IMG/VR virus record: IMGVR_UViG_3300009779_000001 | Span: 5,527 to 69,526 of that record | Length of the DNA stretch: 64,000 bases | Origin: a virus | Lineage: Duplodnaviria; Caudoviricetes | Strand: one strand, 5' to 3' | The notes under the pieces: generated by a model | What the model was told of the DNA's origin: nothing | The model's input: only the letters and a program-made list of their open reading frames with translations | The model's database searches: none | Program-made: the position numbers and the translations under genes | Shown here: positions 26,422-54,270 of the stretch, one piece after another | Layout: each line of letters starts with the position of its first letter | How positions within the stretch are numbered: the first letter of the stretch is position 1

Positions 26422-28071
26422 GTGGTTCAATTCGGTGTTGAGTCAGAAAACGGTTGGAGACCGGCTAAGGCTTCTGCCGATCAATGCGTCTGGGTCAAAG
26501 TACCGGGAACCACTGTCTCCCTTCAGATTTTACGAGGCCAACCCGAAAAAATCCTCAGAGCGTTTGCGGCTGATTTCAATGCTTACGTTGAACCGTTGCG
26601 CGATCCTGATTCTGCAAGTTGGACACCGACTAATTCTGTAGCAACGTCCAATCATCTCAATGGTACTGCTATGGATTTAAACTGGCAAAGTCATCCATTT
26701 AGGGTTTTAAATGCTGGATTTAATCAATCCCAAATCAATACCATCAACGATCTTCTTGATTTCTACGAAAATACCATTTTTTGGGGAAACTATTGGAGCA
26801 ACCCAAAAGATGCCATGCACTTTCAAATGGGGTATGGAACATGGAACAATCCAAAAACACAAGACTTCATTAACCGCAAAATTCGGCCTGACGGTTACTC
26901 AACATTTAGGCGCGGAGGTACGTTTACGCCTGCGCCTGCACAGGTAACCTATGGAGAAAAGGTAGAAATCCTCGCCGAAGCCATGGGGAACAGCATCCCC
27001 ATGGACCGCTACCGCGATCTTCTCCCCGCCGTGAGTGAGGCACTAGCTGCTTGCGACTGCACTACCGTTCCTCGCATTGCCATGTGGATGGCTCAAATCG
27101 GCCACGAGTCGGCGGGTCTGAAATACATGGAGGAAATTGCCAGCGGAGAAGCTTACGAAGGCCGCAGTGATCTTGGAAATCACAAACCGGGGGATGGAAA
27201 AAGGTACAAAGGTAGAGGCCCAATCCAAATCACCGGTCGTCACAACTACACCAAAGTTTCGGAGTGGGCTTTCAAAAATGGCTACACGACGTACAAGAAC
27301 TTTTTTGTTGAACACCCAGAAAAACTGTCTGACAGTGAGTATGGTTTTCTTGGGGTGGTTTGGTACTGGACTGTCGCTCGCCCTCACATCAATCAACTGT
27401 GTGACAATGGTGATCTTAGCGGAGTTACGCAAGCGATTAACGGCGGGTATAACGGATTAGAAGATCGACGCAACAGGTGGAATAAAGCAAAAGGCATGGG
27501 CGACAAGCTCCTGTCGCTTGTGGGAAAATCAGAAGAAACACAGGAGGACGGTTTCATGTCTGCTTTGAGTGCCGACGAACAGCGAGCCTTGTATAACGCG
27601 ATAATGATGCCGCGTCCCAGCAAGTCTCCCCTCGCCCATATTGGGGAGGGAAACATTGGTAACAGTCAAGATATCGAAGGGTACATGGATGCAAATATCC
27701 ACGTTCTTGTTGTGGATTTGCTTGCTAGGCTAGGCGATCCCAATACGCTCGCTCTGCTGGAAGAAGTGTCCAACGTGGACCTCGCCAAGTACCCCAACAA
27801 GGCTGGTGGGAAGAACCTCGCGCTGGCGATTTTGGAGAACGCACGCCGGTTGGCTTCTGGTGGGTCAGCCCCGGCCCCTTCTGGTTCTGCTCCCGCCCCC
27901 CCGGTCCAGACACGGATTGAGTACGTTCCGGTTCCTGCTCCCCCCGCTCCTGCTGCGACTGCCGCGCCTCTCCCCGTTACTGGTGATGGCCTATACAATG
28001 AAATTAACAACTTCAAAAATCTTTTGCAGGAAGTCGGCGCGAGTATTTCCCAGGCTGTCAAAGGAGAATAA
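26422..28071 (+). CDS. lysA: endolysin (lysin A): M15-type peptidase, GH19 glycoside hydrolase, C-terminal binding region
   Basis: ENGW start; SNHLNGTAMD...DAMHFQ Zn motif; AQIGHES...YKGRGPIQITGRHNY GH19 motif; GGAGG SD 7 nt before GTG. Confidence 0.9.
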   Translation: MVQFGVESENGWRPAKASADQCVWVKVPGTTVSLQILRGQPEKILRAFAADFNAYVEPLRDPDSASWTPTNSVATSNHLNGTAMDLNWQSHPFRVLNAGFNQSQINTINDLLDFYENTIFWGNYWSNPKDAMHFQMGYGTWNNPKTQDFINRKIRPDGYSTFRRGGTFTPAPAQVTYGEKVEILAEAMGNSIPMDRYRDLLPAVSEALAACDCTTVPRIAMWMAQIGHESAGLKYMEEIASGEAYEGRSDLGNHKPGDGKRYKGRGPIQITGRHNYTKVSEWAFKNGYTTYKNFFVEHPEKLSDSEYGFLGVVWYWTVARPHINQLCDNGDLSGVTQAINGGYNGLEDRRNRWNKAKGMGDKLLSLVGKSEETQEDGFMSALSADEQRALYNAIMMPRPSKSPLAHIGEGNIGNSQDIEGYMDANIHVLVVDLLARLGDPNTLALLEEVSNVDLAKYPNKAGGKNLALAILENARRLASGGSAPAPSGSAPAPPVQTRIEYVPVPAPPAPAATAAPLPVTGDGLYNEINNFKNLLQEVGASISQAVKGE

Positions 28072-29432: not shown

Positions 29433-29451
29433 GGCTGCCCATTGCTCAGGA

Positions 29452-29472
29452 AACTGCGGTTCTTCCGCAGTT
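29452..29472 (+). terminator. hairpin at end of late operon
   Basis: AACTGCGG-TTCTT-CCGCAGTT perfect 8-bp stem; weak U-tract. Confidence 0.4.
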
Positions 29473-29751
29473 ACGCACGGCTCCGCGTTAAAACCATCAG
29501 ACAAAGAAGTACTTAACTACAAAAGACACCCCCCCCAAACCCCCCCCAAACCGCCAGGTGGTCTGCCACACTTTTTCCAGGTCAGGGTACCCTAACTTTC
29601 GGGGTTGTTAGCCGGTCTAACTAACGCTCTGACCTGGGTTTTTGGGGGTCTGGGTTGACCGGGTGGTGGCAGACCGGTCATTGTGGAATCACCGCAGCAC
29701 CGGCTGTGGTCTGGTCTCTTGATCAGAACTACTCTCCGTTAGGGGATTGTT

Positions 29752-30471
29752 ATGTCCAAGCTCGCTACCCTTAAGGCTCGTTTTTCTTCGAAAAACGAGA
29801 ACATCCAGTCGGCTACGCCGACTGCTGACTCCGCTGCGGAGCAGCGGAAGGCTGCCGAGGGCAGCAGCAAGTTCCTTCGGAACTTGCTGTTCCAGAAGCA
29901 GATTGATGAAAGCCGCGTAGCGGCTTTCATCAACCCCCAGTTCGCTGATCCGGCTCTGCCGGATCAGTACAAGGGTCAGGAAGTCACCTTCGGTGACTTC
30001 CTGAAGGTCCGGCTGGAGAACACCCTCCGTCCCAACGGGACGGTGGGTGTTCACTACCCGCTGACCAGCAGCTTGAGCCATGATCAGGCCGATGGCCTGA
30101 TCACGGCTCTCAAGCTGCTGCCGAACCGGAGCAACGACGGGGCTACGCCCCGTCGCCGCCAGTCGGCTACGCCGACTGCCCCGGCGGCTCAACCGGCTAC
30201 GCCGGTTGAGAACAGCGAGATCGCTTCGATCAAAGCCGACATGTCGGCTTTGATCGACATTGTCGCCGCACTGGCCGAAGGCCAGTCGCAGCAGGCTCAA
30301 CCGGCAGAGCCGGTTGAGGGCCATGCCAAGGTGGCAGAACCGGCAGAGCCGGTTCTGCCGACCGTCATCAACCTGGCCCCTGGCCAGGTTGTGATGGTCA
30401 ACGGCGAACTCCGTCAGGTTTCACCTGACGGCAAGCGGCTCAACAAGACCATCGACAAGACCATCGTCTAG
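29752..30471 (+). CDS. 239-aa hypothetical protein, first gene after the non-coding boundary
   Basis: AGGGG SD-like; 240 open codons with strongly C/G-ending codons; repeats QSATPTA and AEPV; followed by a 15-bp-stem hairpin. Confidence 0.65.
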   Translation: MSKLATLKARFSSKNENIQSATPTADSAAEQRKAAEGSSKFLRNLLFQKQIDESRVAAFINPQFADPALPDQYKGQEVTFGDFLKVRLENTLRPNGTVGVHYPLTSSLSHDQADGLITALKLLPNRSNDGATPRRRQSATPTAPAAQPATPVENSEIASIKADMSALIDIVAALAEGQSQQAQPAEPVEGHAKVAEPAEPVLPTVINLAPGQVVMVNGELRQVSPDGKRLNKTIDKTIV

Positions 30472-30519
30472 ACGATGGTCGAGGCCATAACCCGGCACCC
30501 CTATGGGGTGCCGGGTTAT
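29777..30519. repeat. tiled array of ~21 sequence-diverse inverted repeats, nearly all with 3-nt loops
   Basis: Examples checked by eye: 29903-29933 TTGATGAAAGCCGC-GTA-GCGGCTTTCATCAA; 29976-30004 TCAGGAAGTCACC-TTC-GGTGACTTCCTGA; 30226-30257 perfect 32-bp palindrome; 30333-30359 12-bp stem with AGA loop. Confidence 0.95.
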
Positions 30520-30719
30520 TGGCGTTTTGGGGGAGATTTTTGGCCGGTGATCCGGCCATTCGCGCGACAGGTTCGCGCGTTGGGTTAAAAGATTAACCCA
30601 AGACCACCCTTGAGATTTTGTATCTATTCCCAATAGATCAAAAGATCAAGTGTACGCGCTTATGCGCGTTAACGATTTCCAAAAGGAAATCGTTTCGGCC
30701 ACTACGAAAGGAAATTACC

Positions 30720-31080: not shown

Positions 31081-31107
31081 CCCGCCAGCAATTCGGCTGG
31101 CGGGTTT
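31081..31107 (+). terminator. intrinsic terminator-like hairpin
   Basis: CCCGCCAGC-AATTCG-GCTGGCGGG then TTT. Confidence 0.6.
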
Positions 31108-31129
31108 GGTGGCTACAAAAGGAAAGCCA

Positions 31130-31339
31130 ATGATTTACACGTTGAAGTTTTTTGAGAACGTTCTAGACGATGAGCCGGTGGAGGTCAAAACCTTCACCGG
31201 AGATGTTCGCACCGTCATTGACGAAACGGACAAGTACTTGACTGCGGATTTGGAGTTCCGCAGTTTTGGAATCGAACTCCAATTCGATAACGAATTGGAG
31301 CGCAGGAGGTTCCAGCGGATTGTGGAGGTGGAACGATGA
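31130..31339 (+). CDS. hypothetical early protein
   Basis: AAGGA SD, ATG 31130; ATGA-coupled to the next gene. Confidence 0.55.
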   Translation: MIYTLKFFENVLDDEPVEVKTFTGDVRTVIDETDKYLTADLEFRSFGIELQFDNELERRRFQRIVEVER

Positions 31340-31668
31340 TGACGGCACTGGAAGCCCTGCTGAAGTCTATGCTTCAGCAGGGCTGGTTTACTGCCAGCGA
31401 CGGTGACGTGGAATCCCCTTTGGGATACTTCGGCTGGACCTGGGTGGTGGAAGATGACCTCTACGAGATTCGGGAGGCCTTTTCCGACGTGATCAAAGCT
31501 TACGGCGATCCCGGTCACAAGTTGATCGGGAACTGGTTCGCTGTTCTGAACAGCAACGGAATCTTGTCCTTCTGGGACAAAGATAATCGGCATTTGGCTG
31601 AGCGGAACTACAGCCATTATGTCACAGAATACAACGAGTGGCTGGAAAAGACTGAGGAGGAAGTCTGA
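31336..31668 (+). CDS. hypothetical early protein
   Basis: WFTASDGDVESPLGYFG motif; coupled start/stop. Confidence 0.65.
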   Translation: MMTALEALLKSMLQQGWFTASDGDVESPLGYFGWTWVVEDDLYEIREAFSDVIKAYGDPGHKLIGNWFAVLNSNGILSFWDKDNRHLAERNYSHYVTEYNEWLEKTEEEV

Positions 31669-31775
31669 TGTGGGATTACATCAAGTCTTGGCTCGTGGCA
31701 ATGTACTGGGGAGTGTTGTTCGCTTCCCCGTTCATCATCATGTGCGTCATCATCTGGGTGGTGTATGACGTATGA
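31668..31775 (+). CDS. 35-aa single-TM membrane protein
   Basis: GAGGAGG SD; MWDYIKSWLVAMYWGVLFASPFIIMCVIIWVVYDV; not in the supplied track. Confidence 0.55.
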   Translation: MWDYIKSWLVAMYWGVLFASPFIIMCVIIWVVYDV

Positions 31776-31966
31776 AAATTAACAATGGGCCTATGTGGCT
31801 CGTCTATGTGGACCGTAATGGAGACAACCATTACCAACCATGGACCGAAGTGGAGGAAGCCGGGTCACTCATTGACCCGGCAACCGACGAGGACATGACC
31901 CTGGTCGGATGGACTACTGACAATCCAGCCTGGATTGTTATTCAAAGGAAGAAAGGAAAGAAATAA
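31772..31966 (+). CDS. hypothetical early protein
   Basis: Coupled overlaps at both ends. Confidence 0.55.
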   Translation: MKINNGPMWLVYVDRNGDNHYQPWTEVEEAGSLIDPATDEDMTLVGWTTDNPAWIVIQRKKGKK

Positions 31967-38173: not shown

Positions 38174-38518
38174 ATGACAACTGTTAACTACCCAGTGAAC
38201 GAAAACGAGCGACGAAACTACAAGGTCTTCAGCAAGAAGGAATTGCGGAGGGCAAACAATCTCGCCAGACGGCGAAACTACAACCGGAGCGTGGACCCCG
38301 GTTTCATCAAGAAACTGAGTGATTACAACCTGTACCCGATCACCATGTCTTTTGTTCACGAACATGCTGGTGGACTCAAGGTAGACAGTCACATGCGGTG
38401 CTGGATTGGTGCCGTCATCAATGAAAAGGTGGAATCGTTTTTCATTGACGTGGACATGAAACTCTACGACTCACTGGAAATTATTTCGGTTCCGGTCAAG
38501 AAAGAGTCTGATTCCTGA
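38174..38518 (+). CDS. hypothetical protein
   Basis: AAGGA SD; coupled to the helicase gene. Confidence 0.6.
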   Translation: MTTVNYPVNENERRNYKVFSKKELRRANNLARRRNYNRSVDPGFIKKLSDYNLYPITMSFVHEHAGGLKVDSHMRCWIGAVINEKVESFFIDVDMKLYDSLEIISVPVKKESDS

Positions 38519-40425
38519 TGTGGAACATGGATCGTTGGGTGGGGGAGTCACGCATGTGGCTCTCCCTCCCTTACTCAGATGAACTCGTAGCAGAGATTAA
38601 AGAGATTCCTGGTGCCAGATATGACTTCGGTCAGAAAATCTGGTACTTCCCGTTGGATTATCAAATTGCACGGGACATTGCCGAAATGGCGAAGCGGCAC
38701 AACGAAAAAGTTTCTGCCGGAAAAATGCTCATCGACTGGATCAAGGAAGAGCGGAAACGCTACATTGCCGTTCTCAAGCCTGATGATCTGAACGCCGACG
38801 TGAGCAACGCTCTGCCGCATCTACGGGCTACCCGCCCTGAGATGATCGCCGCTATGGAGAGCAAGCCCTGGCAGATACCTGGGACTGCCTTCATCGTGGG
38901 GCAGAAGCGTGTGCTGCTGGCCGACAAGCCTGGTCTGGGCAAGACCTTGCAGACGCTGGCGGCTGTGGCCGAACTGGACATACGAGGGCCGATTCTCGTT
39001 GTCGCCCCTCGTAGTGCGGTCAATGTGACGTGGCCGGAAGAAATTAAGCAATGGCTGGGGGATGACGAGAAAATCGTCATCATCAACTCCCAACTTAAGC
39101 CAGCGGAAAGGGTAAAGTTACTGGAACAGGTAGAAAGGACTCCCAAGAATGAGCGAATCTGGGTACTTCTTGGCCCTAACTATTTACGTATTCGGGCTGA
39201 CGTTGACCAATACGGTAACTATTTACGTGACAATAAAGGCCGTAAAATCATCAGAACAGTGCAAGAGGGACTTGCAGAACTCTTTAGCATTGAATGGTCG
39301 TCTATTATCGTTGATGAATCACACCAAACCCTTGCCGGAGCAACAGGAAACAAAAAACGGCAGTCTGCTCAACGGAATGGATTGGGTGCCCTTTCAACAC
39401 GAAGCGATGGACTCCGAATCGCTATTAGCGGAACTCCGTTCAGGGGCAAAACTGAAAACATTTGGGGAACGCTTAACTGGCTAGAACCGGGAAAGTATTC
39501 TTCGTACTGGAAGTGGATTCAGCGTCACTACGGTATTCAAAAGACTCAGGCGACTTATGGGTCTGGAATCATCAAAGGTGACAAGATTAAGGATCAGAAA
39601 AGATTCTATGGTGAGCTAGCCCCTATTATGGTGCGACGAACCAAAGAAGAGGTTCAAGATTCTCTCCCGCCCAAGACTTACGGCGGGACGCATCTGGACC
39701 CGGCTGATCCGAATTCACCGGTTGCGGTGTGGCTGCCCATGTCGAAGCAACAAAAAGCGCAGTACGATCTTATCGTCAAGCAGGCAGTTCTGCGTTTGAG
39801 TACTTCAGACCTGAATGTTAACGGTGTGCTGGCAGAGATGACCCGCTTCAAGCAGCTTGCAAACGCTTGTTTGGACGGGTCCGGTGATGGGGTTAAGCCC
39901 CATGGCCCTTCTAACAAAGCCGAATGGATTGTTGATTTTCTTCAAGATCGTCAAGAATCCGGTACAAAAGTTATCGTGGCAAGCCAATTTACTGGCTTTC
40001 TAGAATACCTTTCGTCGGTTTTGAAGGACGAAAAGATCGGACACTACCTTTTCACCGGGAAAACTCCTGACAAGGTGCGAGCCAGTATCAAAGCCGACTT
40101 CCAATCGGAGGGCGGGGATGCCGTGATTCTGCTGAACACCAAGTCTGGCGGCGTGAGCCTGACGCTGGACAAGGCTGACGATGTGGTGATCTGTGACCAA
40201 ACCTGGACCCCTGACGATCAGGAGCAGGTAGAGGATCGCGCTCACCGAATCAGTCGAAACCACCATGTCACCGTATGGAACCTCGCTAGTCTAGGAACCA
40301 TTGATGAAGCCGTGGCTCTCACCAACGCAACGAGGGAGAAGGAAATCTTTTCCATCCTTGAGGGACAGCGCGGAGTCGCCTACGTCAAGGCTCTCATCAC
40401 CGCCATGAAAGGACAGGCAGCGTGA
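38518..40425 (+). CDS. SNF2-like (SF2) DNA helicase
   Basis: LLADKPGLGKT, IIVDESH, ISGTPF, GGVSLTL, QVEDRAHRI motifs. Confidence 0.9.
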   Translation: MWNMDRWVGESRMWLSLPYSDELVAEIKEIPGARYDFGQKIWYFPLDYQIARDIAEMAKRHNEKVSAGKMLIDWIKEERKRYIAVLKPDDLNADVSNALPHLRATRPEMIAAMESKPWQIPGTAFIVGQKRVLLADKPGLGKTLQTLAAVAELDIRGPILVVAPRSAVNVTWPEEIKQWLGDDEKIVIINSQLKPAERVKLLEQVERTPKNERIWVLLGPNYLRIRADVDQYGNYLRDNKGRKIIRTVQEGLAELFSIEWSSIIVDESHQTLAGATGNKKRQSAQRNGLGALSTRSDGLRIAISGTPFRGKTENIWGTLNWLEPGKYSSYWKWIQRHYGIQKTQATYGSGIIKGDKIKDQKRFYGELAPIMVRRTKEEVQDSLPPKTYGGTHLDPADPNSPVAVWLPMSKQQKAQYDLIVKQAVLRLSTSDLNVNGVLAEMTRFKQLANACLDGSGDGVKPHGPSNKAEWIVDFLQDRQESGTKVIVASQFTGFLEYLSSVLKDEKIGHYLFTGKTPDKVRASIKADFQSEGGDAVILLNTKSGGVSLTLDKADDVVICDQTWTPDDQEQVEDRAHRISRNHHVTVWNLASLGTIDEAVALTNATREKEIFSILEGQRGVAYVKALITAMKGQAA

Positions 40426-41494: not shown

Positions 41495-42598
41495 GTGCCC
41501 CTAATGGGAATCCCGATCCTCAGAAATTCTGAGCGATCCAGCTTCAAAAAATGCCAATACCAATGGCACTGGGGCTGGAACATGGGTCTTGTACCCGCCA
41601 TGGTCAAGCAAGATGCACTCTGGTTCGGAACCGGCATCCATCTCGCGCTGGCCGAATATTACACACCCCCTGAAGGAAAAAGCGGATTCGTTCGCGGCAG
41701 GAATCCTTTGGAATCCTGGGAAGAATTCTGCGCCGGTCACAACGCCATTATGCGTACTGGTGACTATTACGATGACGACGCAGAATACGAATACATTCAG
41801 GCTAAGGAACTTGGATTATCCATTCTAGATTCCTACCTGAAGCACTACGGTGATGATGGGCACTGGGAAGTTCTCATGCCGGAAACCCGCTTTGTGGCGA
41901 AGATTCCTTTCACCATAGAGCAACTGGATCGTCAGATTCAGCAAGAGCGTCTTTTCGATGACGACGGCGAATACATCACCAAGATCGCTGGCACATTCGA
42001 TATGCCGGTGAGGGATCATTCGTTCCCCAAGCCGCGCATTATGATCGTGGATCACAAAACAACGAACCGTCAGGAAAACATCAAGCATCTGCAAAAAGAT
42101 GACCAGGCGGGTACCTATATCGCTGTGGGTACAGGGTACTTACGAAAGCTGGGCTTCATCGAAAAGAATGAAGCTATCGACGGGATGATTTTCAATTACC
42201 TTCGGAAAGCCAAAGCCGACAACCGGCCACGGGATGCAGAGGGTCGCTGCCTGAACAAAGATGGCAGCGTATCGAAGAATCAGCCGTCGCCTTTGTTCTG
42301 GCGAGCAACGGTCATGCGGAGCAAGGCCAATCGACTCAGGCAGATACGCCGGATCGCGGAGGACGCTGAGCAGATCGCTCTGGCCCGTGACGGGAGCATC
42401 CCGCTCACCAAGGCACCGGGCGAGCATTGCAATTGGTGTCAGTTTAGTGACCTCTGCGATATAGATGAGAACGGAGATGATGTTGACGGCTTCATCGAAG
42501 CAACGTTCAAGCGACAAGACCCCTACGCAGACCACCGCGACGGTGCGGTGAATTCAAAAGAATCTGTGTCTGCGAAGAAAGAAACAGGAGTTCGTTAA
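41495..42598 (+). CDS. PD-(D/E)XK (RecB/Cas4-like) exonuclease
   Basis: SERSSFKKCQ, GTGIHLAL, AGTFDM...IVDHKTT, CNWCQFSDLC motifs. Confidence 0.85.
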   Translation: MPLMGIPILRNSERSSFKKCQYQWHWGWNMGLVPAMVKQDALWFGTGIHLALAEYYTPPEGKSGFVRGRNPLESWEEFCAGHNAIMRTGDYYDDDAEYEYIQAKELGLSILDSYLKHYGDDGHWEVLMPETRFVAKIPFTIEQLDRQIQQERLFDDDGEYITKIAGTFDMPVRDHSFPKPRIMIVDHKTTNRQENIKHLQKDDQAGTYIAVGTGYLRKLGFIEKNEAIDGMIFNYLRKAKADNRPRDAEGRCLNKDGSVSKNQPSPLFWRATVMRSKANRLRQIRRIAEDAEQIALARDGSIPLTKAPGEHCNWCQFSDLCDIDENGDDVDGFIEATFKRQDPYADHRDGAVNSKESVSAKKETGVR

Positions 42599-42789: not shown

Positions 42790-43060
42790 AAGACTGCTGA
42801 TATCACAAACTGTTGTCTACCAAGGTAAAGACGACAGGTGGTATTGGTACACCAAATCCATGAACGGCAAAAAGATAGGAGACAGTGGACAAGGATATGT
42901 AGATATGAAAGGGGCCGTGAACGGCTTCTTCGCACAGCAAGGGTTTCCCGATTTCGACCCGTCGAAAAAGGAAACCTGGCCCGAAAACTTCGGGCAACCA
43001 CGACCATTACCAACAGCAAAAAACCATTACGTCATCAGTGCATACCGGAAGGAAAACTAA
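42782..43060 (+). CDS. DUF1508/YegP-like protein
   Basis: GKDDRWYW...NGKKIGDSGQGY motif. Confidence 0.6.
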   Translation: MSERLLISQTVVYQGKDDRWYWYTKSMNGKKIGDSGQGYVDMKGAVNGFFAQQGFPDFDPSKKETWPENFGQPRPLPTAKNHYVISAYRKEN

Positions 43061-43061
43061 C

Positions 43062-43976
43062 ATGGTCGAAATCATTAGCTTGGCAGACGATATTCCCAAG
43101 TGGAATATTCTGATTCACGCCGACAGTGGAGCGGGTAAAACTGTACTGGCGGGATCGGATGATCGGGTGCTGTTCCTGGCACCGGAAGACAGTGGAACGC
43201 TCTCCGCTCTCCGCATGGGGTCCGCCGCACAGAAGATCAAGGTGCGTCACTGGGATGACATTCGGGAAGCCGTCGAATACCTGGAAGCCAATCCTGACGT
43301 GCTGGGACAATTCGACGTTCTCGCTGTGGATTCTCTCACCGAAATGCAGAAGATGTGCATGATGGCAATTCTGGAAGCCAATCGGGGAGAACGTCTGTCG
43401 AAGGGTCAAGACCCTGAGACACCGCAGATTCAGGACTACGGAAAGTTGCACGTCCTGTTTGAGAATCTGGTTCGGCGTATCAACGAACTCAATATCAACG
43501 TTCTTTACACTGCGCTGACGCGCAAGGTCGAGGACGCAGACCACAACGAGTTCCTGGTTCCCGAAATCTCCGGTAAGGATTACGGAGTCGCCATGAAGAT
43601 CGTTGCTCTGATGACGAGCTACGGTCATCTTCGGGTGGAACTGGTGGAAGTACCCGCCAACGATCCCGAAAATCCTGAGCGCACAAAGGTTGTCAAGCGT
43701 CGGACGATTTACTGGGAGGACACGGGAACGATTCGCGCCAAGGATCGCACTACCCGTCTTGCTCCCTACACCGTCAACGCCAAGATGAAAGACATTCGTC
43801 TTGCGATTGAGGGAGAAATGGTTCGCGGGGCCAACGGGAAAATCGTTGATCCTCACGCCCCCAAGGCACCGCGCAAGAAAATGGCCGCTCAGGCTAGCCC
43901 AAAGCCGGAAAAGCCGGTAGAGTCGGTGGAGGCCGACAACGTGGAATCAGTGGAGGAATTATTGATCGAAGCTTAG
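43062..43976 (+). CDS. AAA-type P-loop ATPase (Sak4/RecA-like recombination protein)
   Basis: HADSGAGKT Walker A, LAVDSLTE Walker B; next to the exonuclease and SSB-like genes. Confidence 0.8.
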   Translation: MVEIISLADDIPKWNILIHADSGAGKTVLAGSDDRVLFLAPEDSGTLSALRMGSAAQKIKVRHWDDIREAVEYLEANPDVLGQFDVLAVDSLTEMQKMCMMAILEANRGERLSKGQDPETPQIQDYGKLHVLFENLVRRINELNINVLYTALTRKVEDADHNEFLVPEISGKDYGVAMKIVALMTSYGHLRVELVEVPANDPENPERTKVVKRRTIYWEDTGTIRAKDRTTRLAPYTVNAKMKDIRLAIEGEMVRGANGKIVDPHAPKAPRKKMAAQASPKPEKPVESVEADNVESVEELLIEA

Positions 43977-45210: not shown

Positions 45211-45476
45211 TGGCCGATGACGCAATGGAGCGTATCGCCACTGCGTTGGAAGTCATTGCGCTCATCCAAAAAACAGAGCACAACCAAAAGAATCACGAAA
45301 CAGGAGGGGAGCAAAGGGTTGCGGCTGCCATAGCCATGACCCACGAACTCTACGCAGACAGTCTCGACAATCTCATCGAAGAAAAGAAAAATGAATACGA
45401 GTTCGCTCGTAGCCTGCGGAAAATGATTAAAGATGCACGCAACACCGCAGAAAAACTCAGGGAGACATTCACTTGA
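45210..45476 (+). CDS. hypothetical helical protein
   Basis: TGATG coupling; overlaps the DnaE start (TTGA). Confidence 0.55.
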   Translation: MADDAMERIATALEVIALIQKTEHNQKNHETGGEQRVAAAIAMTHELYADSLDNLIEEKKNEYEFARSLRKMIKDARNTAEKLRETFT

Positions 45477-48400
45477 GATTTGTCAGTTTCCACACCCACA
45501 GCACATATTCCTACGGGGATGGCTTCGGGACCGTTCGTGAGCATGTCGAGCGAGCGAGGAATCTGGGCATGACCGCTCTAGGGCTAAGCGAACATGGCAA
45601 CGTCAACAGCCATGTGGCCCTAGAGCGGGAATGTGCCCGTGTCGGCATCAAGCCGATCTTCGGACTGGAAGCCTACTTCAGTCCTCCGAAGACACAGAAA
45701 AAGTTCCATATCGGACTTTACGCAATGAACGAAGAAGGGTACCAAAACCTCAACAAAATTGTGACACAATCATACATAGACGCTTACCAATATCCGACTG
45801 TTTCCTGGGAGAGCTTGGTAAAGAACAATGCAGGAGTCGCCGCCTTCTCCGGTTGTGCAGATTCTCTCATATCATGCACTCTGCTGGGTGGTAAGTCACT
45901 TGGAGAGCGAAGAGAATCCTTCAGCGACGACGATTACGAAAATACCCGTCGGAAAATACAACGGTTCATGGATGTATTTGACGGAGGGCGGTTTTTTCTG
46001 GAGGTACAGAGATTTCCTGGCCTTGGCAGAACTTGTACTCTCAATCCAGCCTTCGCAAGATTATCCGACGACCTCGGAGTACCACTTATTGCGACGGCTG
46101 ATGTTCACTATCCCTTCGGTGACGACAACGAGATGCAAAAGGTACTTCATGCGGCTCGTCGGTCGAGCAGTGTTGCTATTGCTGAAGCGGAATGGGAATA
46201 CGGAATCAAGCTCACCTACCCAGAATCCGACAGCCAAATCCAGAACCAACTCGTCAGAACCGGGTTGACTGAATATGAAGCGTATTGCGCTATCGACAAC
46301 ACCCGCATCCTCGCTGAAGACTGCAACGTCGAACTGCCCAAAGCAAAGCCACTGCGCTTCCCGCTTCCCTCTGGGCACGAAACATCACAAGGACTACTTC
46401 AACAAAGAATCAGAAACGGGCTTTATGCCCGGCTGAAAATCAGACCGGACATTCAAGAACGTTTCGATGACTACCGCAAACGAATTCGCCACGAATTCAA
46501 CATCATTGCCGACAAAGATTTCTGCGACTACTTTCTCGTCGTAGCCGATCTGGTGCAATGGGGAAAGGCCCAAGGCATAGCCGTAGGACCGGGCAGAGGC
46601 TCAGCAGCAGGCTCGCTGATCTGCTACCTGCTGGGTATCACCGAAATCGACCCGCTGCATCCGGTGTTCTCGCGCATGGTCTTTGAGCGATTCATTGATC
46701 CTGGCCGGTCGGACATGCCCGATATCGACCTGGACTTTGCCGACGACAAACGTAGCTTGATCGCAGAAAGGGCACGAGAAATCTATGGAAACGAAAACGT
46801 CGCCAACGTCGCCAACCACATCAAATACCGTGGGAGAAAAGCTCTTCAAGACGTGGCGCGAGCATATAACCTGGGTCTTAAACTCTTCGACCCAATCGCA
46901 CAAAAATGCGCCATCAGGGTCGAAACCGACGAGCGCGTGGACGATTCAATTAAGGACACCATCGAAAGTTTTTCGTCTGATCCTGCAATATCAACGCTGG
47001 TATCTGAGTTCGAACATGTTGTGCATCAAGCGATCCGACTTGAAGGTAACCAACACTCAATGGGGATTCACGCTGGCGGTTTCGTCATATCTTCGGAGCC
47101 GATTCCTGAAGTCTGCGCGATATACACCAAACTAAAAGGTCAGGGGAGACAAAAAGAAACAGTTCAGGTCATCCCCTATGACAAGCGGGACGCGGAATAC
47201 CTGGGAATGCTCAAAATGGACTTCCTGGGCCTGACCACCATGGGCATGATCGGCAAATGCCTGGACTGGACGGGAACCACGCTACAAGAACTATATGGAA
47301 TTTTTTATAACTCTTTAGAAAACGATATCAACCGCAGTATCCTTGAGCGTTTCCGCATAGATGACGTGATGGGGATATTCCAATACGAGGGAGGTACAAC
47401 CCGCCAGGTAGTGCGCGACGTGGCACCGGACAACTTCGATGAACTGGCAGCGTGTGGAGCGTTGTCGAGGCCGGGGCCGTACTACGGTGGTCAGACCACC
47501 GACTACATAGCCGTCAAACGCGGCGAAAAAGACTGGGAGAGAATACATCCCGGTTTCGACAAGCATGTGGAGTGGACCTATGGGCAAATCGTCTACCAAG
47601 AACAAATCATGTGGATACTGCGCGATCTCGCAGGCTTCTCTACAGAAAGAGTTCTCAAAGTACGAAAGATCATTGGCAAGAAACTCGGGGAATTCCAGTT
47701 CGCGGAACTCTGGGAAGAATTCAAGAATGGCTGCCGCGCTAACGGCGTTACAGAGAGTGCTGCACGCAAAGTTTGGAGTGGCATCACAACGGCTGCCGGG
47801 TACGCATTCAATACTGCTCATGCATACTCATACGCACTCGTAGCCTGGTGGCAGATGTGGTTCAAAATTCATCACCCCGTGGAATTCTTTGCCGCCAGCT
47901 TGGCGAAGAATGGTGATGGCAAGGATGACCTGAGCAGGCGTGTGCTGCTGCTTCAGGATGCAGAGGCTCACGGTATCCGGTGTGAGAGGGTGTCTCCCAT
48001 GACCTCTGACGTGACCTGGCGACCCGCTCTGGGAGAGGGTGGGGGCATCGTGCCGGGATTCTCGCAGATCGACGGTATCGGGGAGGCCACTGCCGCTGAC
48101 ATTGTGGAGTGGCGACGTGAAAAGTATGGAAAGGAATGGTGGACGAAAGATATTGACTGGCAAGAGCTTTCAGAAGTTAAAGGAATCGGGCCGAAAACGA
48201 TTGACAAGATGCTGACTTTTGCCAACGAGGAAGACCCCTTCGGTATCTACCGGACGGGAAAAGCCTTGCAGGAGTTCCGGTTACAACTCAAGCGAGGGGA
48301 GTTCTCCGCATACGGACTGCCCCCTGCCGGTGACCTCTATCAATCCGACATGCTGCCCAACGAAACCCAGTATGTTGGGTTCGTTGGGCTGGTCGGCGGG

Positions 48401-48691
48401 ATCATTCACCGGGACGAGGTAGAGACAATCCGAATCCGAACCGGTAAATCGGTAGAGGAGATTCTTTCCGAACTGGAACACAACGATAAAACCAAGAAGG
48501 CGACGATTTTCGCTTTCGATGAGTATGGCGAAGTGGCACTGAGGATTTCGCGGTTCCGGTACCCTGACCTCGCTATCAAACTGTCCTCCATCAAAGAGAA
48601 TCACCACTTGGTGTGCGTCTGGGGGAGAACGTTCAAAGACCGGCCCAACTCTGTGCAGGTCACCGACATGTGGGTCTTGGACCCCTCGTAG
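45473..48691 (+). CDS. dnaE: DNA polymerase III alpha subunit (family C) with PHP domain
   Basis: HTHSTYSYGDG, SEHGN, TADVHY (PHP); GPGRGSAAGSL, PDIDLD, GIHAGG, KMDFLGL, FQYEGG, GYAFNTAH motifs. Confidence 0.95.
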   Translation: MRFVSFHTHSTYSYGDGFGTVREHVERARNLGMTALGLSEHGNVNSHVALERECARVGIKPIFGLEAYFSPPKTQKKFHIGLYAMNEEGYQNLNKIVTQSYIDAYQYPTVSWESLVKNNAGVAAFSGCADSLISCTLLGGKSLGERRESFSDDDYENTRRKIQRFMDVFDGGRFFLEVQRFPGLGRTCTLNPAFARLSDDLGVPLIATADVHYPFGDDNEMQKVLHAARRSSSVAIAEAEWEYGIKLTYPESDSQIQNQLVRTGLTEYEAYCAIDNTRILAEDCNVELPKAKPLRFPLPSGHETSQGLLQQRIRNGLYARLKIRPDIQERFDDYRKRIRHEFNIIADKDFCDYFLVVADLVQWGKAQGIAVGPGRGSAAGSLICYLLGITEIDPLHPVFSRMVFERFIDPGRSDMPDIDLDFADDKRSLIAERAREIYGNENVANVANHIKYRGRKALQDVARAYNLGLKLFDPIAQKCAIRVETDERVDDSIKDTIESFSSDPAISTLVSEFEHVVHQAIRLEGNQHSMGIHAGGFVISSEPIPEVCAIYTKLKGQGRQKETVQVIPYDKRDAEYLGMLKMDFLGLTTMGMIGKCLDWTGTTLQELYGIFYNSLENDINRSILERFRIDDVMGIFQYEGGTTRQVVRDVAPDNFDELAACGALSRPGPYYGGQTTDYIAVKRGEKDWERIHPGFDKHVEWTYGQIVYQEQIMWILRDLAGFSTERVLKVRKIIGKKLGEFQFAELWEEFKNGCRANGVTESAARKVWSGITTAAGYAFNTAHAYSYALVAWWQMWFKIHHPVEFFAASLAKNGDGKDDLSRRVLLLQDAEAHGIRCERVSPMTSDVTWRPALGEGGGIVPGFSQIDGIGEATAADIVEWRREKYGKEWWTKDIDWQELSEVKGIGPKTIDKMLTFANEEDPFGIYRTGKALQEFRLQLKRGEFSAYGLPPAGDLYQSDMLPNETQYVGFVGLVGGIIHRDEVETIRIRTGKSVEEILSELEHNDKTKKATIFAFDEYGEVALRISRFRYPDLAIKLSSIKENHHLVCVWGRTFKDRPNSVQVTDMWVLDPS

Positions 48692-51114: not shown

Positions 51115-51203
51115 TTCCCTTTATTGGGGAGGCAGCAGAGATACGCTTGACCCTCCCCACTCTCATCACTGCCCTGACGGGCCGACGTGGAAGGTTCTCA
51201 TCA

Positions 51204-53918: not shown

Positions 53919-54270
53919 GGTTCCCGAAAATTCGGGAACCGAAGGGGGTTGAGATGAAAACGGGAACCGGGTATCGGTGCAGGTCAGGACATGTTTTGGT
54001 TCCCTGTTCCTCTTAGTTCCTCTTTTTTTAGAAGTAGTAGTAGTAGTAGATATATAAAGAGAATAGGTATGTGTATGTGCGCCGCGTGTACGTATGTAAG
54101 AGAGTTTGGGCGAAAAAAAGAGGAACTGAAGAACCCGCAGGTCAAAGAGGTATCGTGGAGGAACCAAACGAGAACCCGCAGGTCAGGGAGGTGCAAAAAG
54201 AGAACCGGCATTGGGGAACTGGGGGAACGGCGGGTTGTGAGGAAAGGGTTGCTGGGCTAGCCCAGAAAGG
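53919..54270. other. putative replication origin
   Basis: Non-coding, directly after the primase-helicase; GCAGGTCA iterons at 53979, 54137 and 54178; many GAAC repeats; AT-rich core with (TAG)5; GGTTCCCGAAAATTCGGGAACC hairpin. Confidence 0.6.

What the first reader, a model, noticed from the sequence alone, without database searches (positions are those of the whole stretch)
29752..30519. A protein-coding gene almost fully tiled by sequence-diverse, near-perfect triloop hairpins
SEEN: the 239-codon ORF carries ~20 head-to-tail inverted repeats covering about two thirds of its length. Stem length/loop by position: 29777-99 (10 bp/TTC), 29806-24 (8/TAC), 29831-47 (7/GGA), 29851-65 (6/GAG), 29865-89 (11/TTC), 29903-33 (14/GTA), 29945-67 (10/TCT), 29976-30004 (13/TTC), 30018-52 (8+7/AAC), 30066-120 (12+10/GAT), 30135-55 (9/TAC), 30160-78 (8/TAC), 30188-210 (10/TAC), 30226-57 (perfect 32-bp palindrome), 30270-86 (7/GAA), 30296-318 (10/AGA), 30333-59 (12/AGA), 30369-91 (10/CCT), 30411-31 (9/TTC), 30459-80 (22-bp palindrome centred on the TAG stop), 30487-519 (15/TAT). 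Stems differ in sequence, but loop length is nearly always 3, pairing is almost purely Watson-Crick, and a GGC-NNN-GCC or GCC-NNN-GGC apex recurs with co-varying flanks. I saw nothing comparable in the other genes I scanned. INFERENCE: selection acts on structure, not on a binding sequence. Near-absence of G-U pairs suggests DNA cruciform/ssDNA folding on both strands rather than only mRNA folding. The locus is the first gene after the late/early boundary, so it could be a first-expressed or first-entering region. Options: ssDNA-stage promoter/origin signals (like plasmid leading-region hairpins); a transcript armoured against RNases or RNA-guided defence; decoys for a structure-specific host sensor; or a dual mRNA/ncRNA. 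I know of no description of such a coding hairpin tile in phages, but I cannot search.
Basis: partly seen in the sequence, partly recalled or inferred. Interest (0 to 1): 0.95.

Follow-up and report, generated by a model that had tools for sequence, protein, structure and literature searches.

The report
Early phage gene tiled with DNA mini-hairpins
A real, early-expressed phage protein gene (the family of mycobacteriophage Patience gp47) is also a row of about twenty perfect DNA palindromes kept for a very long time by paired mutations, so one 0.75 kb stretch is selected both as protein and as folded nucleic acid, for a purpose still unknown.

Summary
ORF 29752-30471 and its 3' end carry 21 perfect Watson-Crick hairpins, against about one per kb elsewhere. 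Shuffles that keep the protein give 1.9 +/- 1.3, against 18 observed.

It is not an artefact. Contigs from two other studies give the same sequence. Ten lineages of the family carry the tile at matching positions with different stem sequences, including Patience gp47, which mass spectrometry detected only early in infection. One lineage, L007/L008, kept the protein and lost the hairpins.

The details point to DNA rather than mRNA:
- Triloops dominate.
- 110 of 122 triloops are closed 5'-C...G-3', and only one G...C.
- GNA or complementary TNC loops make up 59%.
- G.T pairs are no commoner than A.C.
- Double transversions are as common as double transitions.

C:G closure with a 5'G/3'A loop is the published requirement for extrusion of small hairpins from supercoiled DNA (phage N4).

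Best reading, at 0.5: a selected array of extrusion-prone DNA mini-hairpins overprinted on an early gene. Rivals are mRNA structure and self-perpetuating arm-to-arm conversion. The function is unknown.

I found no description in phages. The closest paper describes coding palindromes in hairworm mitochondria. This scan noted hairpin-tiled early genes before, on other DNA (jumbo phages).

The parts
29752..30471 (+). Protein-coding gene (239 aa), homolog of mycobacteriophage Patience gp47 (phrog_29693, function unknown). It is a GC-rich island: 61% against 52% for the rest of the window.
   Evidence: ORF. tblastn hits to Patience, Madruga and Labelle at about 33% identity. 44 family representatives. 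PHROG hit. AlphaFold2 mean pLDDT 82, residues 30-130 above 90. Patience gp47 detected by MS in early-infected cells only (PMC4324244).
29777..30431 (.). Row of 19 perfect hairpins/palindromes inside the CDS. Stems are 6-16 bp, the loop is 3 nt in 18 of them, and the apex is 5'-C NNN G-3' in 17 of those 18. The row starts about 25 nt after the ATG, so the ribosome-binding region is left open.
   Evidence: Shuffle controls. Positional conservation with compensatory changes.
30226..30257 (.). Perfect 32-bp palindrome with no spacer, encoding SIKADMSALID. It is conserved as a palindrome in L003 and L005.
   Evidence: Public contigs break exactly here.
30459..30480 (.). 22-bp palindrome centred on the TAG stop codon. 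Its 3' arm lies beyond the ORF. An equivalent stop-spanning palindrome is present in eight other tiled loci: L001-L006, L009 and L010.
30487..30519 (+). 15-bp-stem hairpin just after the stop, followed by TTGGCGTTTTGGGGG. It is the likely transcription terminator of the unit. It is conserved with compensatory changes, with stems of 10-17 bp in the homologs.
   Evidence: It is not called by the strict U-tract scan.
29433..29751 (+). Upstream non-coding region that probably holds the gene's own promoter and 5' UTR. The box CGCGTTAAAACCATCAGA (29484-29501) is conserved and is followed by a C-rich tract. This region is not hairpin-tiled.
   Evidence: Alignment A4. The box is unique in the window.
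30541..30694 (.). Downstream intergenic region with five hairpins that have 3-5-nt loops. Two are conserved in sequence and are probably protein-binding control sites of the early operon: TTGGGTTAA-aagat-TAACCCAA (30580-30601) and ATCTATT-ccc-AATAGAT (30622-30638).
29689..30324 (-). Antisense ORF of 211 aa. It is a by-product of the palindromes: codon-aligned palindromes read the same on both strands, so QEVTEGDFL mirrors QEVTFGDFL.
   Evidence: There is no evidence that it is a gene.

Best explanation
The stretch has two overlapping roles. It encodes a real, folded, early and short-lived phage protein. Laid over the same bases, from about +25 of the ORF to the terminator, is an array of about 20 sequence-diverse DNA mini-hairpins tuned for intrastrand folding: perfect Watson-Crick stems, 3-nt loops, 5'-C...G-3' closing pairs, and GNA or complementary TNC loops.

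The array is ancestral to the gene family. It is kept by selection on pairing, possibly helped by arm-to-arm conversion, and protein and palindromes have adapted to each other. The palindromes use the two codon registers in which third codon positions pair with first or second positions. Amino acids on the two arms change in reverse-complement pairs, for example VTFGD / VAVSD / VAIGD.

Inferred mechanism, not shown: on the circularised, gyrase-supercoiled and early-transcribed genome the palindromes extrude as small cruciforms, or fold on transiently single-stranded DNA. This makes a 0.75-kb structured DNA zone at the late/early boundary that acts in cis. My ranking of what that zone does:
- A supercoil-responsive element that buffers or reports superhelical tension between the two large operons and limits this gene to the first minutes of infection: about 0.2.
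- An entry or priming zone for the phage's PrimPol-D5 helicase replisome: about 0.15.
- A recombination hot spot or a decoy for a structure-sensing host system: about 0.1 together.

The mRNA must fold into the same hairpins. That is an unavoidable consequence and may add to the tight limit on expression.
For: SHOWN
1. Hairpin density is 25-29 per kb in the gene against 2-6 per kb in the flanks, in W, Patience, Madruga, L003, L004, L005, L006, L009 and L010. It is 16-18 per kb in L011 and L012. Shuffles that keep the protein give about a tenth of the observed count.
2. Hairpins are positionally conserved with many two-sided changes. Among Patience, Madruga and Labelle, none of about 12 substitutions in the gene falls inside a stem, although stems are 35% of the gene.
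3. The tile lies on both sides of the deepest split of the family tree. The untiled L007 is nested among tiled lineages on a long branch, so the tile is ancestral and was lost once. L007 folds at z = -2.5 against -19.6 for W.
4. DNA-type signatures, pooled over 10 lineages:
   - The loop is 3 nt in 122 of 171 hairpins.
   - Closing pairs are C..G 110, T..A 11, G..C 1, A..T 0, although C..G and G..C are equally common in the background.
   - GNA loops are 55 of 122 (background 6-10%) and TNC loops 17 of 122 (background 5%).
   - G.T 24 against A.C 28 just outside the stems.
   - Double transversions 33 against double transitions 27.
   - No UNCG tetraloops.
5. Codon registers: 435 and 443 pairs fall in the two wobble-using registers, against 110 in the pos3-pos3 register.
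6. The protein is real. Patience gp47 peptides were found only in the early sample (PMC4324244), and the fold is confident.

FROM THE LITERATURE
- A C:G closing pair is worth about 2-3 kcal/mol over G:C in d(GNA) triloops (PMC3201870).
- DNA mini-hairpins are far more stable than their RNA versions. They occur at G4-type origins, RSF1010 ssiA and N4 promoters (PMC13037366).
- In N4 the 5'C:G3' closing pair and the 5'G/3'A loop bases are required for extrusion of 5-7-bp hairpins, seen at superhelical density -0.035 and in vivo (PMC4496689).
- The pyrimidine-rich complementary loop is equally stable. Streptomyces telomere overhangs pack seven GNA-loop palindromes into 180 nt for a primase (PMC5449611).

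CONTEXT
The phage encodes a PrimPol-D5 helicase, a DnaE-type polymerase, an SNF2/HARP helicase, a PD-(D/E)XK nuclease and an AAA_24 protein.
Against: - No experiment or read data shows that these hairpins form in DNA in vivo.
- The tile coincides with the transcription unit, from just after the start codon to the terminator. That is also what an RNA-level function would predict.
- GNA loops are three times commoner on the sense strand than on the antisense strand (55 against 17). This could mean the transcript, or the sense DNA strand, matters. It could equally reflect amino-acid preference: GAA is Glu and AAA is Lys, while TTC is Phe.
- A C:G closing pair also stabilises some RNA loops (PMC3201870).
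- RNA polymerase pushes positive supercoils ahead of it. These would reabsorb cruciforms in a gene body, which weakens the 'timer' sub-model.
- For an origin role: there are no iterons and no adjacent AT-rich unwinding element, the cumulative GC skew shows no turn here, an iteron-rich candidate lies next to the primase gene (first-stage note e1-5853529's neighbour e1-... at 53919-54270, unchecked), and L007 manages without the tile.
- The almost binary perfection of the stems fits an active conversion process as well as it fits selection. Only about 10 of 97 continue past a mismatch.
Confidence: 0.5

Rival explanations
1. RNA-level function. The hairpins are selected in the mRNA. A rod of about 20 stable stem-loops would shield the first early transcript from RNases, Rho or RNA-guided defence. 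Alternatively it would throttle translation, so that only a brief pulse of this protein is made.
For: The tile spans exactly the transcribed unit and spares the first 25 nt or so after the ATG. The RNA fold is extreme, z = -19.6. Loops favour the sense strand, GNA 55 against TNC 17. The protein is made only early. Earlier notes of this scan describe hairpin-tiled early genes in jumbo phages read as RNA (e1-5674012, unchecked).
Against: G.T is not enriched over A.C at stem ends, 24 against 28, and is almost absent inside stems. Compensatory changes are not biased towards the G-U-mediated transition path, 27 against 33. Triloops dominate, and none of the tetraloops listed is UNCG. The 110:1 preference for C..G over G..C closure, together with GNA loops, is the documented DNA mini-hairpin signature, and the RNA versions are much less stable (PMC13037366, PMC3201870). 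In the window's own gene the enriched loops are TNC on the sense strand, 8 of 18, which are GNA only on the non-transcribed strand. No Rfam family reaches its threshold. Only this one gene of the early region would be protected.
Confidence: 0.2
2. Self-perpetuating palindromes without a function. Quasi-palindromes in this segment are continually made perfect by intrastrand template switching or by mismatch correction between arms. Each arm copies the other, so 'compensatory' changes arise mechanically. The repeats persist because they cannot be deleted from a needed gene. This is the explanation proposed for coding palindromes in hairworm mitochondria.
For: Stems are near-binary in their perfection and few are imperfect. 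The same codon-phase bias is seen as in Nematomorpha mitochondrial DNA, where the authors favour conversion (PMC6649704). One lineage lost the tile and kept the gene, so the tile is dispensable. Stable C-GNA-G apexes would also make fold-back events more likely.
Against: The palindromes are confined to one transcription unit in every genome, not scattered. The rest of the window is at background, about 1 per kb, although the same replisome copies all of it. Positions are conserved across the deepest split of the family rather than gained and lost dynamically. Closely related Cluster U phages show no substitutions inside stems and no double changes, which looks like purifying selection rather than neutral conversion. 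The gene is a GC-rich island in every lineage, 10-18 points above the flanks. The tile runs past the stop codon into non-coding DNA, where deletion would be free.
Confidence: 0.2
3. Artefact or protein-driven coincidence. The palindromes come from assembly fold-backs, or simply follow from a repetitive or low-complexity protein sequence.
For: Logan contigs break at the 32-bp palindrome. The protein has short PAxPV-type repeats and a 39-nt direct repeat.
Against: The same sequence appears in contigs of two other studies, wherever they cover the gene. The same tile is present in cultured phages Patience, Madruga and Labelle, with peptides seen by MS. Shuffles that keep the exact protein lose about 90% of the hairpins. 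Homolog L007 keeps the protein without the hairpins. Most of the tiled region encodes a confidently folded domain.
Confidence: 0.02

Closest known systems
[quoted passage not shown] 2019, NAR, PMC6649704)
   Same: Perfect inverted repeats lie inside functional protein-coding genes and both arms encode conserved residues. Stems are almost always perfect. The codon-phase bias is the same: phases that pair wobble positions with positions 1 or 2 are favoured and the pos3-pos3 phase is avoided. The function is unknown.
   Different: There the repeats are long (up to 284 bp), scattered over many genes, and gained and lost between species. The authors lean towards a parasitic conversion process. Here the stems are short (6-17 bp) and about 20 are packed head to tail in one gene of a virus. 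They are positionally conserved across a deep family and have a C-NNN-G / GNA apex rule.
DNA mini-hairpins d(GCGAAGC)/C-GNA-G, and the supercoil-extruded hairpin promoters of phage N4 virion RNA polymerase (PMC13037366, PMC3201870, PMC4496689)
   Same: The geometry matches: a 3-nt loop, a 5'C:G3' closing pair, a 5'G/3'A loop, and in the Patience clade stems mostly of 7 bp. In N4 exactly these features allow extrusion from double-stranded DNA at physiological superhelicity.
   Different: N4 has three promoters with conserved recognition bases upstream of early genes, and it carries a 3500-aa virion polymerase. Here there are about 20 hairpins of free sequence inside a coding region. No ORF longer than 1072 aa exists in the 64 kb seen. 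Half of the loops are not GNA or TNC.
Streptomyces linear-replicon telomere overhangs (PMC5449611), and the single-strand initiation signals of G4-type phages and RSF1010 ssiA/ssiB
   Same: Different palindromes with GNA triloops are tightly packed (seven in 180 nt at the telomere). They function as folded single-stranded DNA for a primase, in Actinobacteria. RepB' and the phage enzyme here both belong to the primase-polymerase type.
   Different: Those are non-coding, lie at ends or origins, and include sequence-specific recognition elements. Here the array is internal, coding, diverse in sequence, and not next to an AT-rich unwinding element.
REP/BIME elements and in-frame Rickettsia palindromic elements
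   Same: Clusters of small palindromes have proposed roles in supercoiling (gyrase binding), transcription termination and mRNA stability. Rickettsia palindromic elements sit in frame within genes.
   Different: Those are multi-copy families with a shared consensus, dispersed around a genome and often mobilised by a transposase. Here each hairpin has its own sequence and the set occurs once per genome.
Origins that lie inside their initiator gene (lambda ori in gene O) - from general knowledge, not tested here
   Same: Dyad-symmetric elements lie inside the coding sequence of an early, very unstable protein in the middle of the genome, and the origin is activated by transcription.
   Different: Lambda has four near-identical iterons bound by O plus an AT-rich region. 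Here there is no repeated binding sequence and no evidence that the protein binds DNA.

Membership tests
DNA mini-hairpin motif (C-GNA-G triloop hairpins) | Three-nucleotide loop | tested here: met
   122 of 171 hairpins in 10 lineages have 3-nt loops. Most '1-nt' cases are C-NNN-G triloops whose outer loop bases happen to be complementary.
DNA mini-hairpin motif (C-GNA-G triloop hairpins) | 5'-C:G-3' loop-closing pair | tested here: met
   110 of 122 triloops are closed C..G, 11 T..A, 1 G..C and 0 A..T. Background frequencies of C..G and G..C are about equal.
DNA mini-hairpin motif (C-GNA-G triloop hairpins) | Loop sequence GNA (sheared G:A pair) | tested here: inconclusive
   55 of 122 loops are GNA on the sense strand and 17 are GNA on the other strand, against a 5-10% background. 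41% are other loops such as AAA, AAC and AGA. The share is high in the Patience clade (12 of 13) and low in L004 and L005.
DNA mini-hairpin motif (C-GNA-G triloop hairpins) | The hairpin actually forms in DNA (single-stranded or extruded) | not testable with these tools
   This needs chemical or enzymatic probing. Only predicted folding energies are available.
N4-type hairpin promoters for a virion RNA polymerase | Conserved recognition bases around the hairpin and a transcription start just downstream | tested here: not met
   Stems and flanks share no conserved bases beyond the closing pair and a weak CGGC/GCCG apex preference. The hairpins lie inside an ORF.
N4-type hairpin promoters for a virion RNA polymerase | Phage encodes a giant virion RNA polymerase | tested here: not met
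   In the right arm (33-64 kb) no ORF exceeds 1072 aa, and that one is a DnaE-type polymerase. The left arm reads as structural and lysis genes. About 5 kb of the genome lies outside the window and was not read.
Coding palindromes (Nematomorpha mtDNA type) | Perfect inverted repeats inside a translated gene, both arms coding conserved residues | tested here: met
   Protein detected by MS in Patience.
Coding palindromes (Nematomorpha mtDNA type) | Codon-phase bias against wobble-wobble pairing | tested here: met
   Pairs (1,3)+(2,2) total 435, pairs (2,3)+(1,1) total 443, and pairs (3,3)+(1,2) total 110. Triloop frames in five lineages are 33 in frame 0, 29 in frame 2 and 1 in frame 1.
Coding palindromes (Nematomorpha mtDNA type) | Scattered over many genes, dynamic gain and loss between relatives | tested here: not met
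   The palindromes are confined to one transcription unit. Positions are conserved across the family's deepest split, with one complete loss.
REP/BIME or RPE-type palindromic repeat families | Many copies sharing a consensus sequence, dispersed in the genome | tested here: not met
   The stems differ in sequence. Only two pairs are alike, and no copies occur elsewhere in the window.
Intrinsic (rho-independent) terminators | GC-rich hairpin followed by a U-tract | tested here: not met
   The scan calls none of the internal hairpins. Only the last one (30487-30519) is followed by a T-rich run, and even it is not called.
Known structured RNA families (Rfam 15) | Match above the family's gathering score | tested here: not met
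   The best match is Pxr at 32.7 bits against a gathering score of 80.
Replication origin / single-strand initiation signal | Iterons or a primase recognition sequence, an adjacent AT-rich unwinding element, a GC-skew turn | tested here: inconclusive
   There are no iterons and no AT-rich element: the gene is the GC-richest part of its neighbourhood. There is no skew inflection. Primase specificity is unknown, so the role is not excluded.

The most novel reading that the evidence does not exclude
A phage family has kept, since its origin, a dual code in one early gene. The amino-acid sequence of a folded protein and an array of about 20 supercoil-extrudable DNA cruciforms are written in the same bases. 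The DNA structure is a cis-acting device at the late/early boundary: a topological sensor or timer, or a replication or recombination entry zone. The protein's evolution is tied to reverse-complement codon pairing. Together with the hairpin-tiled early genes noted in jumbo phages by this scan, this would point to a general, undescribed class of structured-DNA elements in early phage genes.
Probability: 0.35. Interest if true: 0.9.

Novelty: new variant of a known kind. Interest (0 to 1): 0.8.

Why it matters
Inverted repeats and coding sequence normally exclude each other. Here about 58% of a gene for a folded protein is perfect palindrome. It has stayed so through divergence to about 25-30% protein identity, by dozens of coupled changes on both arms. 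That makes it a clean natural example of two superimposed codes.

It is also directly testable. Patience and its relatives grow on M. smegmatis mc2 155, can be engineered, and already have proteomic data. A natural untiled homolog (L007) shows that the protein can exist without the stems.

If the hairpins act in DNA, this would be only the second case after N4 of small supercoil-extruded hairpins used by a phage, and the first inside a gene. If they are maintained by conversion alone, it would show that the 'parasitic coding palindrome' process proposed for hairworm mitochondria also runs in viruses.

Either way it explains two published oddities of Patience gene 47: its 62% GC island, previously read as horizontal transfer, and its early-only, quickly vanishing product. 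It also matters in practice. Assemblers break at these palindromes, and the long antisense ORF is a trap for gene callers.

Tried and rejected
- Nucleotide search of the phage collection with the region found nothing. Only tblastn found the Cluster U homologs.
- Pfam finds no family for the protein. PHROGs gives only phrog_29693, of unknown function.
- The search for related loci with the six-sequence alignment failed for lack of a conserved block. The five-sequence alignment found nothing in viral contigs and three loci in metagenome contigs.
- The fold of the protein has no clear match:
  - Foldseek against PDB gives nothing with E <= 0.001.
  - VIA-align's best hit is Z 4.4 to the Red-beta C-terminal domain, with 63 residues aligned at rmsd 3.8. 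That is below the level that means more than a common arrangement.
  - The ESM Atlas shape search gives TM <= 0.28, with NinB among the weak rows.
  - I draw no function from these.
- I tried to infer the tile from protein sequence alone, using the longest stem that synonymous codons allow. It separates the long-stem tiles (13-16 potential hairpins against 5-6 in shuffles). It cannot see the 7-bp Patience-type tile, so I used it only to choose loci.
- DNA could not be fetched for P0004 and P0028 because the sample files are too large.
- RNA evidence: no RNA holder is listed for this phage, so expression of the window's own gene was not examined.
- Contigs of runs X3 and X4 have gaps in parts of the gene. 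Contigs end at long palindromes.
- An apparent TAT-to-ATA flip of the terminator loop in run X2 (30502-30504) cannot be told from a k=31 de Bruijn ambiguity in a 33-bp palindrome. I do not count it as evidence of cruciform-mediated inversion.
- The promoter and terminator consensus scan found nothing above chance around the gene.
- The Lamassu/DdmABC literature (PMC11707656) shows that palindromes can trigger a defence system. That argues against, rather than for, a phage keeping them as bait. I keep 'decoy' only as a minor option.
Full report
WHAT IS THERE

The window is a tailed-phage genome of the mycobacteriophage type, about 51% GC. A lysin A gene lies at 26422-28071 (M15 peptidase plus GH19), followed by small lysis-cassette genes. 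Then come a 320-nt gap and the ORF 29752-30471 (239 aa). After a further 150-nt gap there is a long run of small rightward genes and a replication module:
- DUF932
- SNF2/HARP helicase
- PD-(D/E)XK nuclease
- AAA_24
- DnaE-type polymerase
- PrimPol-D5 helicase

The DNA comes from activated-sludge and wastewater metagenomes and recurs in several studies.

THE OBSERVATION

A centre-by-centre scan of all 64 kb finds 21 perfect Watson-Crick hairpins with stems of 7 bp or more between 29777 and 30519, 18 of them with 3-nt loops. The remaining 63 kb has about one per kb.

Within the CDS, 18 such hairpins cover 415 of 720 nt. Shuffling synonymous codons while keeping the protein gives 1.9 +/- 1.3 hairpins (maximum 6 in 300 shuffles). 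Shuffling codon order gives 0.4 +/- 0.7. Folding energies lie 19-20 standard deviations below dinucleotide shuffles, both as RNA on the sense strand and as DNA on the antisense strand.

Contigs from two other studies agree with the coding sequence wherever they cover it, apart from a 12-nt indel near the 3' end. This is not an assembly artefact.

IT IS A PROPERTY OF A WHOLE GENE FAMILY

The only phage-database homologs are Patience gp47 and its Cluster U relatives, at about 33% identity. Metagenomic searches give 44 representatives at 50% clustering. In every locus with context the gene sits in the same place: after the lysis genes, flanked by gaps, before the small early genes.

I obtained DNA for eleven further lineages. 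Hairpin density in the gene, stems of 6 or more:

| Locus | Hairpins in gene | Density |
|---|---|---|
| W (window) | 23 | 25-29 per kb |
| Patience | 22 | 25-29 per kb |
| Madruga | 23 | 25-29 per kb |
| L003 | 19 | 25-29 per kb |
| L004 | 18 | 25-29 per kb |
| L005 | 19 | 25-29 per kb |
| L006 | about 19 | 25-29 per kb |
| L009 | 21 | 25-29 per kb |
| L010 | 22 | 25-29 per kb |
| L011 | 11 | 16-18 per kb |
| L012 | 13 | 16-18 per kb |

Flanks have 2-6 per kb. In every lineage the gene is a GC island, 6-18 points above its flanks.

L007 and L008 are the exception. They have the same protein family and the same downstream control motif, but hairpins at background level (5.5 per kb) and a fold z of only -2.5.

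On a protein tree the tile occurs on both sides of the deepest split. L007 is nested among tiled lineages on a long branch. The tile is therefore ancestral and was lost once.

COVARIATION

In a codon alignment the hairpins line up between lineages while their sequences differ. One hairpin encodes V-T-F-G-D in the window (GTCACC ttc GGTGAC). At the same place L005 encodes V-A-V-S-D (GTCGCT gtt AGCGAC) and L003 encodes V-A-I-G-D (GTCGCCA t TGGCGAC). The amino acids on the two arms change together as reverse-complement codon pairs.

Of 189 column pairs that are paired in two or more lineages, 56 show more than one Watson-Crick type. RNAalifold on only four close homologs finds 52 of 177 pairs with two-sided changes.

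Among the near-identical Cluster U phages, none of about 12 substitutions in the gene lies inside a stem, although stems make up 35% of it. Several substitutions lengthen or shorten a stem end, and one creates a new hairpin.

THE PROTEIN IS REAL

The Patience paper reports gp47 peptides. It was the only one of 81 proteins seen in the early sample but not late, 'presumably ... turned over rapidly'. The paper notes the gene's 62% GC as a possible horizontal acquisition and says nothing about hairpins (PMC4324244).

AlphaFold2 with a 35-sequence alignment gives a confident model:
- an alpha/beta domain at residues 30-130, pLDDT above 90
- a long helix at 152-178
- a small beta domain at 213-232

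So most of the tile encodes folded protein, not a disordered linker. No convincing structural or family match was found.

HOW THE TWO CODES COEXIST

Pairs fall almost only in the two registers where a third codon position pairs with a first or second position: 435 and 443 pairs, against 110 in the register that pairs third with third. Among triloops of five lineages, 33 start in frame 0, 29 in frame 2 and 1 in frame 1. The same phase bias was described for coding palindromes in hairworm mitochondria (PMC6649704).

The 211-aa antisense ORF is a by-product of codon-aligned palindromes.

DNA OR RNA?

Six features were measured over ten lineages:
1. The loop is 3 nt in 122 of 171 hairpins. Tetraloops are few and none is UNCG.
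2. The closing pair of triloops is 5'-C..G-3' in 110, T..A in 11, G..C in 1 and A..T in 0. C..G and G..C are equally frequent in the background.
3. Loops are GNA in 55 and TNC in 17 of 122, against 5-10% background. GAA alone accounts for 44 of 126.
4. The pair just outside the perfect stem is G.T 24 times and A.C 28 times. There is no sign that wobble pairs extend the stems on the transcribed sense.
5. Two-sided changes are double transversions (33) as often as double transitions (27). The G-U-mediated path typical of RNA helices is not favoured.
6. In the window's own gene the enriched loops are TTC and TAC, 8 of 18, which are GAA and GTA only on the other strand.

The literature matches these features to DNA:
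- A C:G closing pair adds about 2-3 kcal/mol over G:C in d(GNA) triloops (PMC3201870).
- DNA mini-hairpins are far more stable than their RNA counterparts (PMC13037366).
- The pyrimidine-rich complementary loop is equally stable (PMC5449611).
- In phage N4 the 5'C:G3' closing pair and the 5'G/3'A loop bases are exactly what is required for 5-7-bp hairpins to extrude from double-stranded DNA. Extrusion is seen at sigma -0.035 and in vivo (PMC4496689).

Against a purely DNA reading:
- The tile coincides with the transcription unit. It starts about 25 nt after the ATG, runs through a palindrome centred on the stop codon, and ends at a conserved 15-bp terminator-like hairpin.
- GNA is three times commoner on the sense strand than on the antisense strand. 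Amino-acid preference could also explain this, since GAA and AAA encode Glu and Lys while TTC encodes Phe.

MECHANISM

Shown: a conserved, compensated array of perfect hairpin-forming palindromes with DNA mini-hairpin apexes, overprinted on an early, short-lived protein gene. It is ancestral and dispensable in one lineage.

Inferred: the palindromes extrude as small cruciforms on the supercoiled, early-transcribed genome, or fold on transiently single-stranded DNA, and act in cis.

I cannot decide what the structured zone does. Options, in my order of preference:
1. A supercoil-responsive element at the boundary between the two large operons. It would buffer or report superhelical tension and help confine this gene's expression to the first minutes. 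This fits the location, the diversity of sequences, the N4 precedent and the dispensability in L007. It is weakened because elongating polymerase pushes positive supercoils ahead of itself.
2. An entry or priming zone for the phage's PrimPol-D5 replisome. This fits known uses of GNA hairpins at G4-type origins, RSF1010 ssiA and Streptomyces telomeres, and the lambda-like pairing of an unstable early protein with dyad elements inside its own gene. It is weakened by the absence of iterons, of an AT-rich element and of a GC-skew turn, and by L007.
3. A recombination hot spot, or a decoy for a structure-sensing host system. Palindromes are known triggers of Lamassu DdmABC (PMC11707656), which makes them a liability rather than an obvious asset.

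RIVALS

RNA-level function (0.2) and self-perpetuating arm-to-arm conversion (0.2) remain open.

The conversion model, proposed for hairworm mitochondria, explains the near-binary perfection of the stems. It does not explain why only this transcription unit is affected in every genome, nor why positions persist across the family's deepest split. It also fails to explain why close relatives show no changes inside stems, and why the tile continues past the stop codon where deletion would cost nothing.

NOVELTY

My literature searches found no description of this in phages. The two Cluster U papers do not mention it.

The closest published case is the hairworm mitochondrial coding palindromes. 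The closest structural analogues are N4 promoter hairpins and Streptomyces telomere palindromes.

Earlier notes of this scan, unchecked by me, report hairpin-tiled early genes in jumbo phages (e1-5734869, e1-5674012) and GNA-hairpin fields read as origin candidates (e1-5402708). The phenomenon may be broader than this family.

I rate it a new variant of a known kind. It is real, striking and directly testable in a tractable laboratory phage, but its function is open.

Noticed in passing
window 30580-30638, and L003, L004, L005, L007, L010 downstream of the gene: A block of about 60 nt is conserved in sequence: TTGGGTTAA-aaga-TTAACCCAA ... CCACCCTTG ... TATCTATTCCCAATAGATCAAAAG. The ATCTATT-ccc-AATAGAT dyad occurs once in the window and two to three times in the untiled L007. 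It is probably the operator/promoter of the early operon, and Patience has a variant (GACAATT-ccc-AATTGTC).
   Followed up: partly
window 29484-29501: The box CGCGTTAAAACCATCAGA, followed by a T-run and a long C-rich tract, is conserved upstream of the gene in five tiled lineages and is unique in the window. It is a candidate promoter or 5'-UTR element of the tiled gene.
   Followed up: partly
window 30440-30463: A 12-nt tandem duplication (TCAACAAGACCA / TCGACAAGACCA) gives ...NKTIDKTIV where the homologs have ...NKTIV. A wastewater run from another study carries the form without the duplication, so it is polymorphic in nature.
   Followed up: partly
window 30502-30504: One independent run shows the loop of the 15-bp terminator hairpin as ATA instead of TAT, a reverse-complement flip. 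This could be a genuine flip-flop inversion between the arms or a k=31 de Bruijn ambiguity. Raw reads would tell.
   Followed up: no
window 31081-31938: There is a second, weaker excess of perfect hairpins in the small early genes just downstream: seven with stems of 7-13 bp, mostly with 5-7-nt loops. I did not test whether they are conserved.
   Followed up: no
window 38518-40425, 41495-42598, 43038-43976, 45473-48691, 51147-53918: The replication and recombination module comprises an SNF2 helicase with a HARP (annealing-helicase) motif, a PD-(D/E)XK nuclease, an AAA_24 (Sak4-like) protein, a DnaE-type Pol III alpha with a PHP domain, and a PrimPol-D5 primase-helicase. This is an unusual self-sufficient set for a 70-kb siphovirus-like genome.
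   Followed up: partly
Patience gene 47 (L001 5767-6483): The published reading of the gene's 62% GC as recent horizontal acquisition is probably wrong. The GC island is a conserved property of the whole family, 6-18 points above the flanks in all lineages, and goes with the GC-rich stems.
   Followed up: yes
window 30226-30257: Public Logan contigs of three runs end or start exactly at the 32-bp perfect palindrome. Such genes will often be split or missing in k-mer assemblies, so the family is probably under-sampled in metagenomes.
   Followed up: partly
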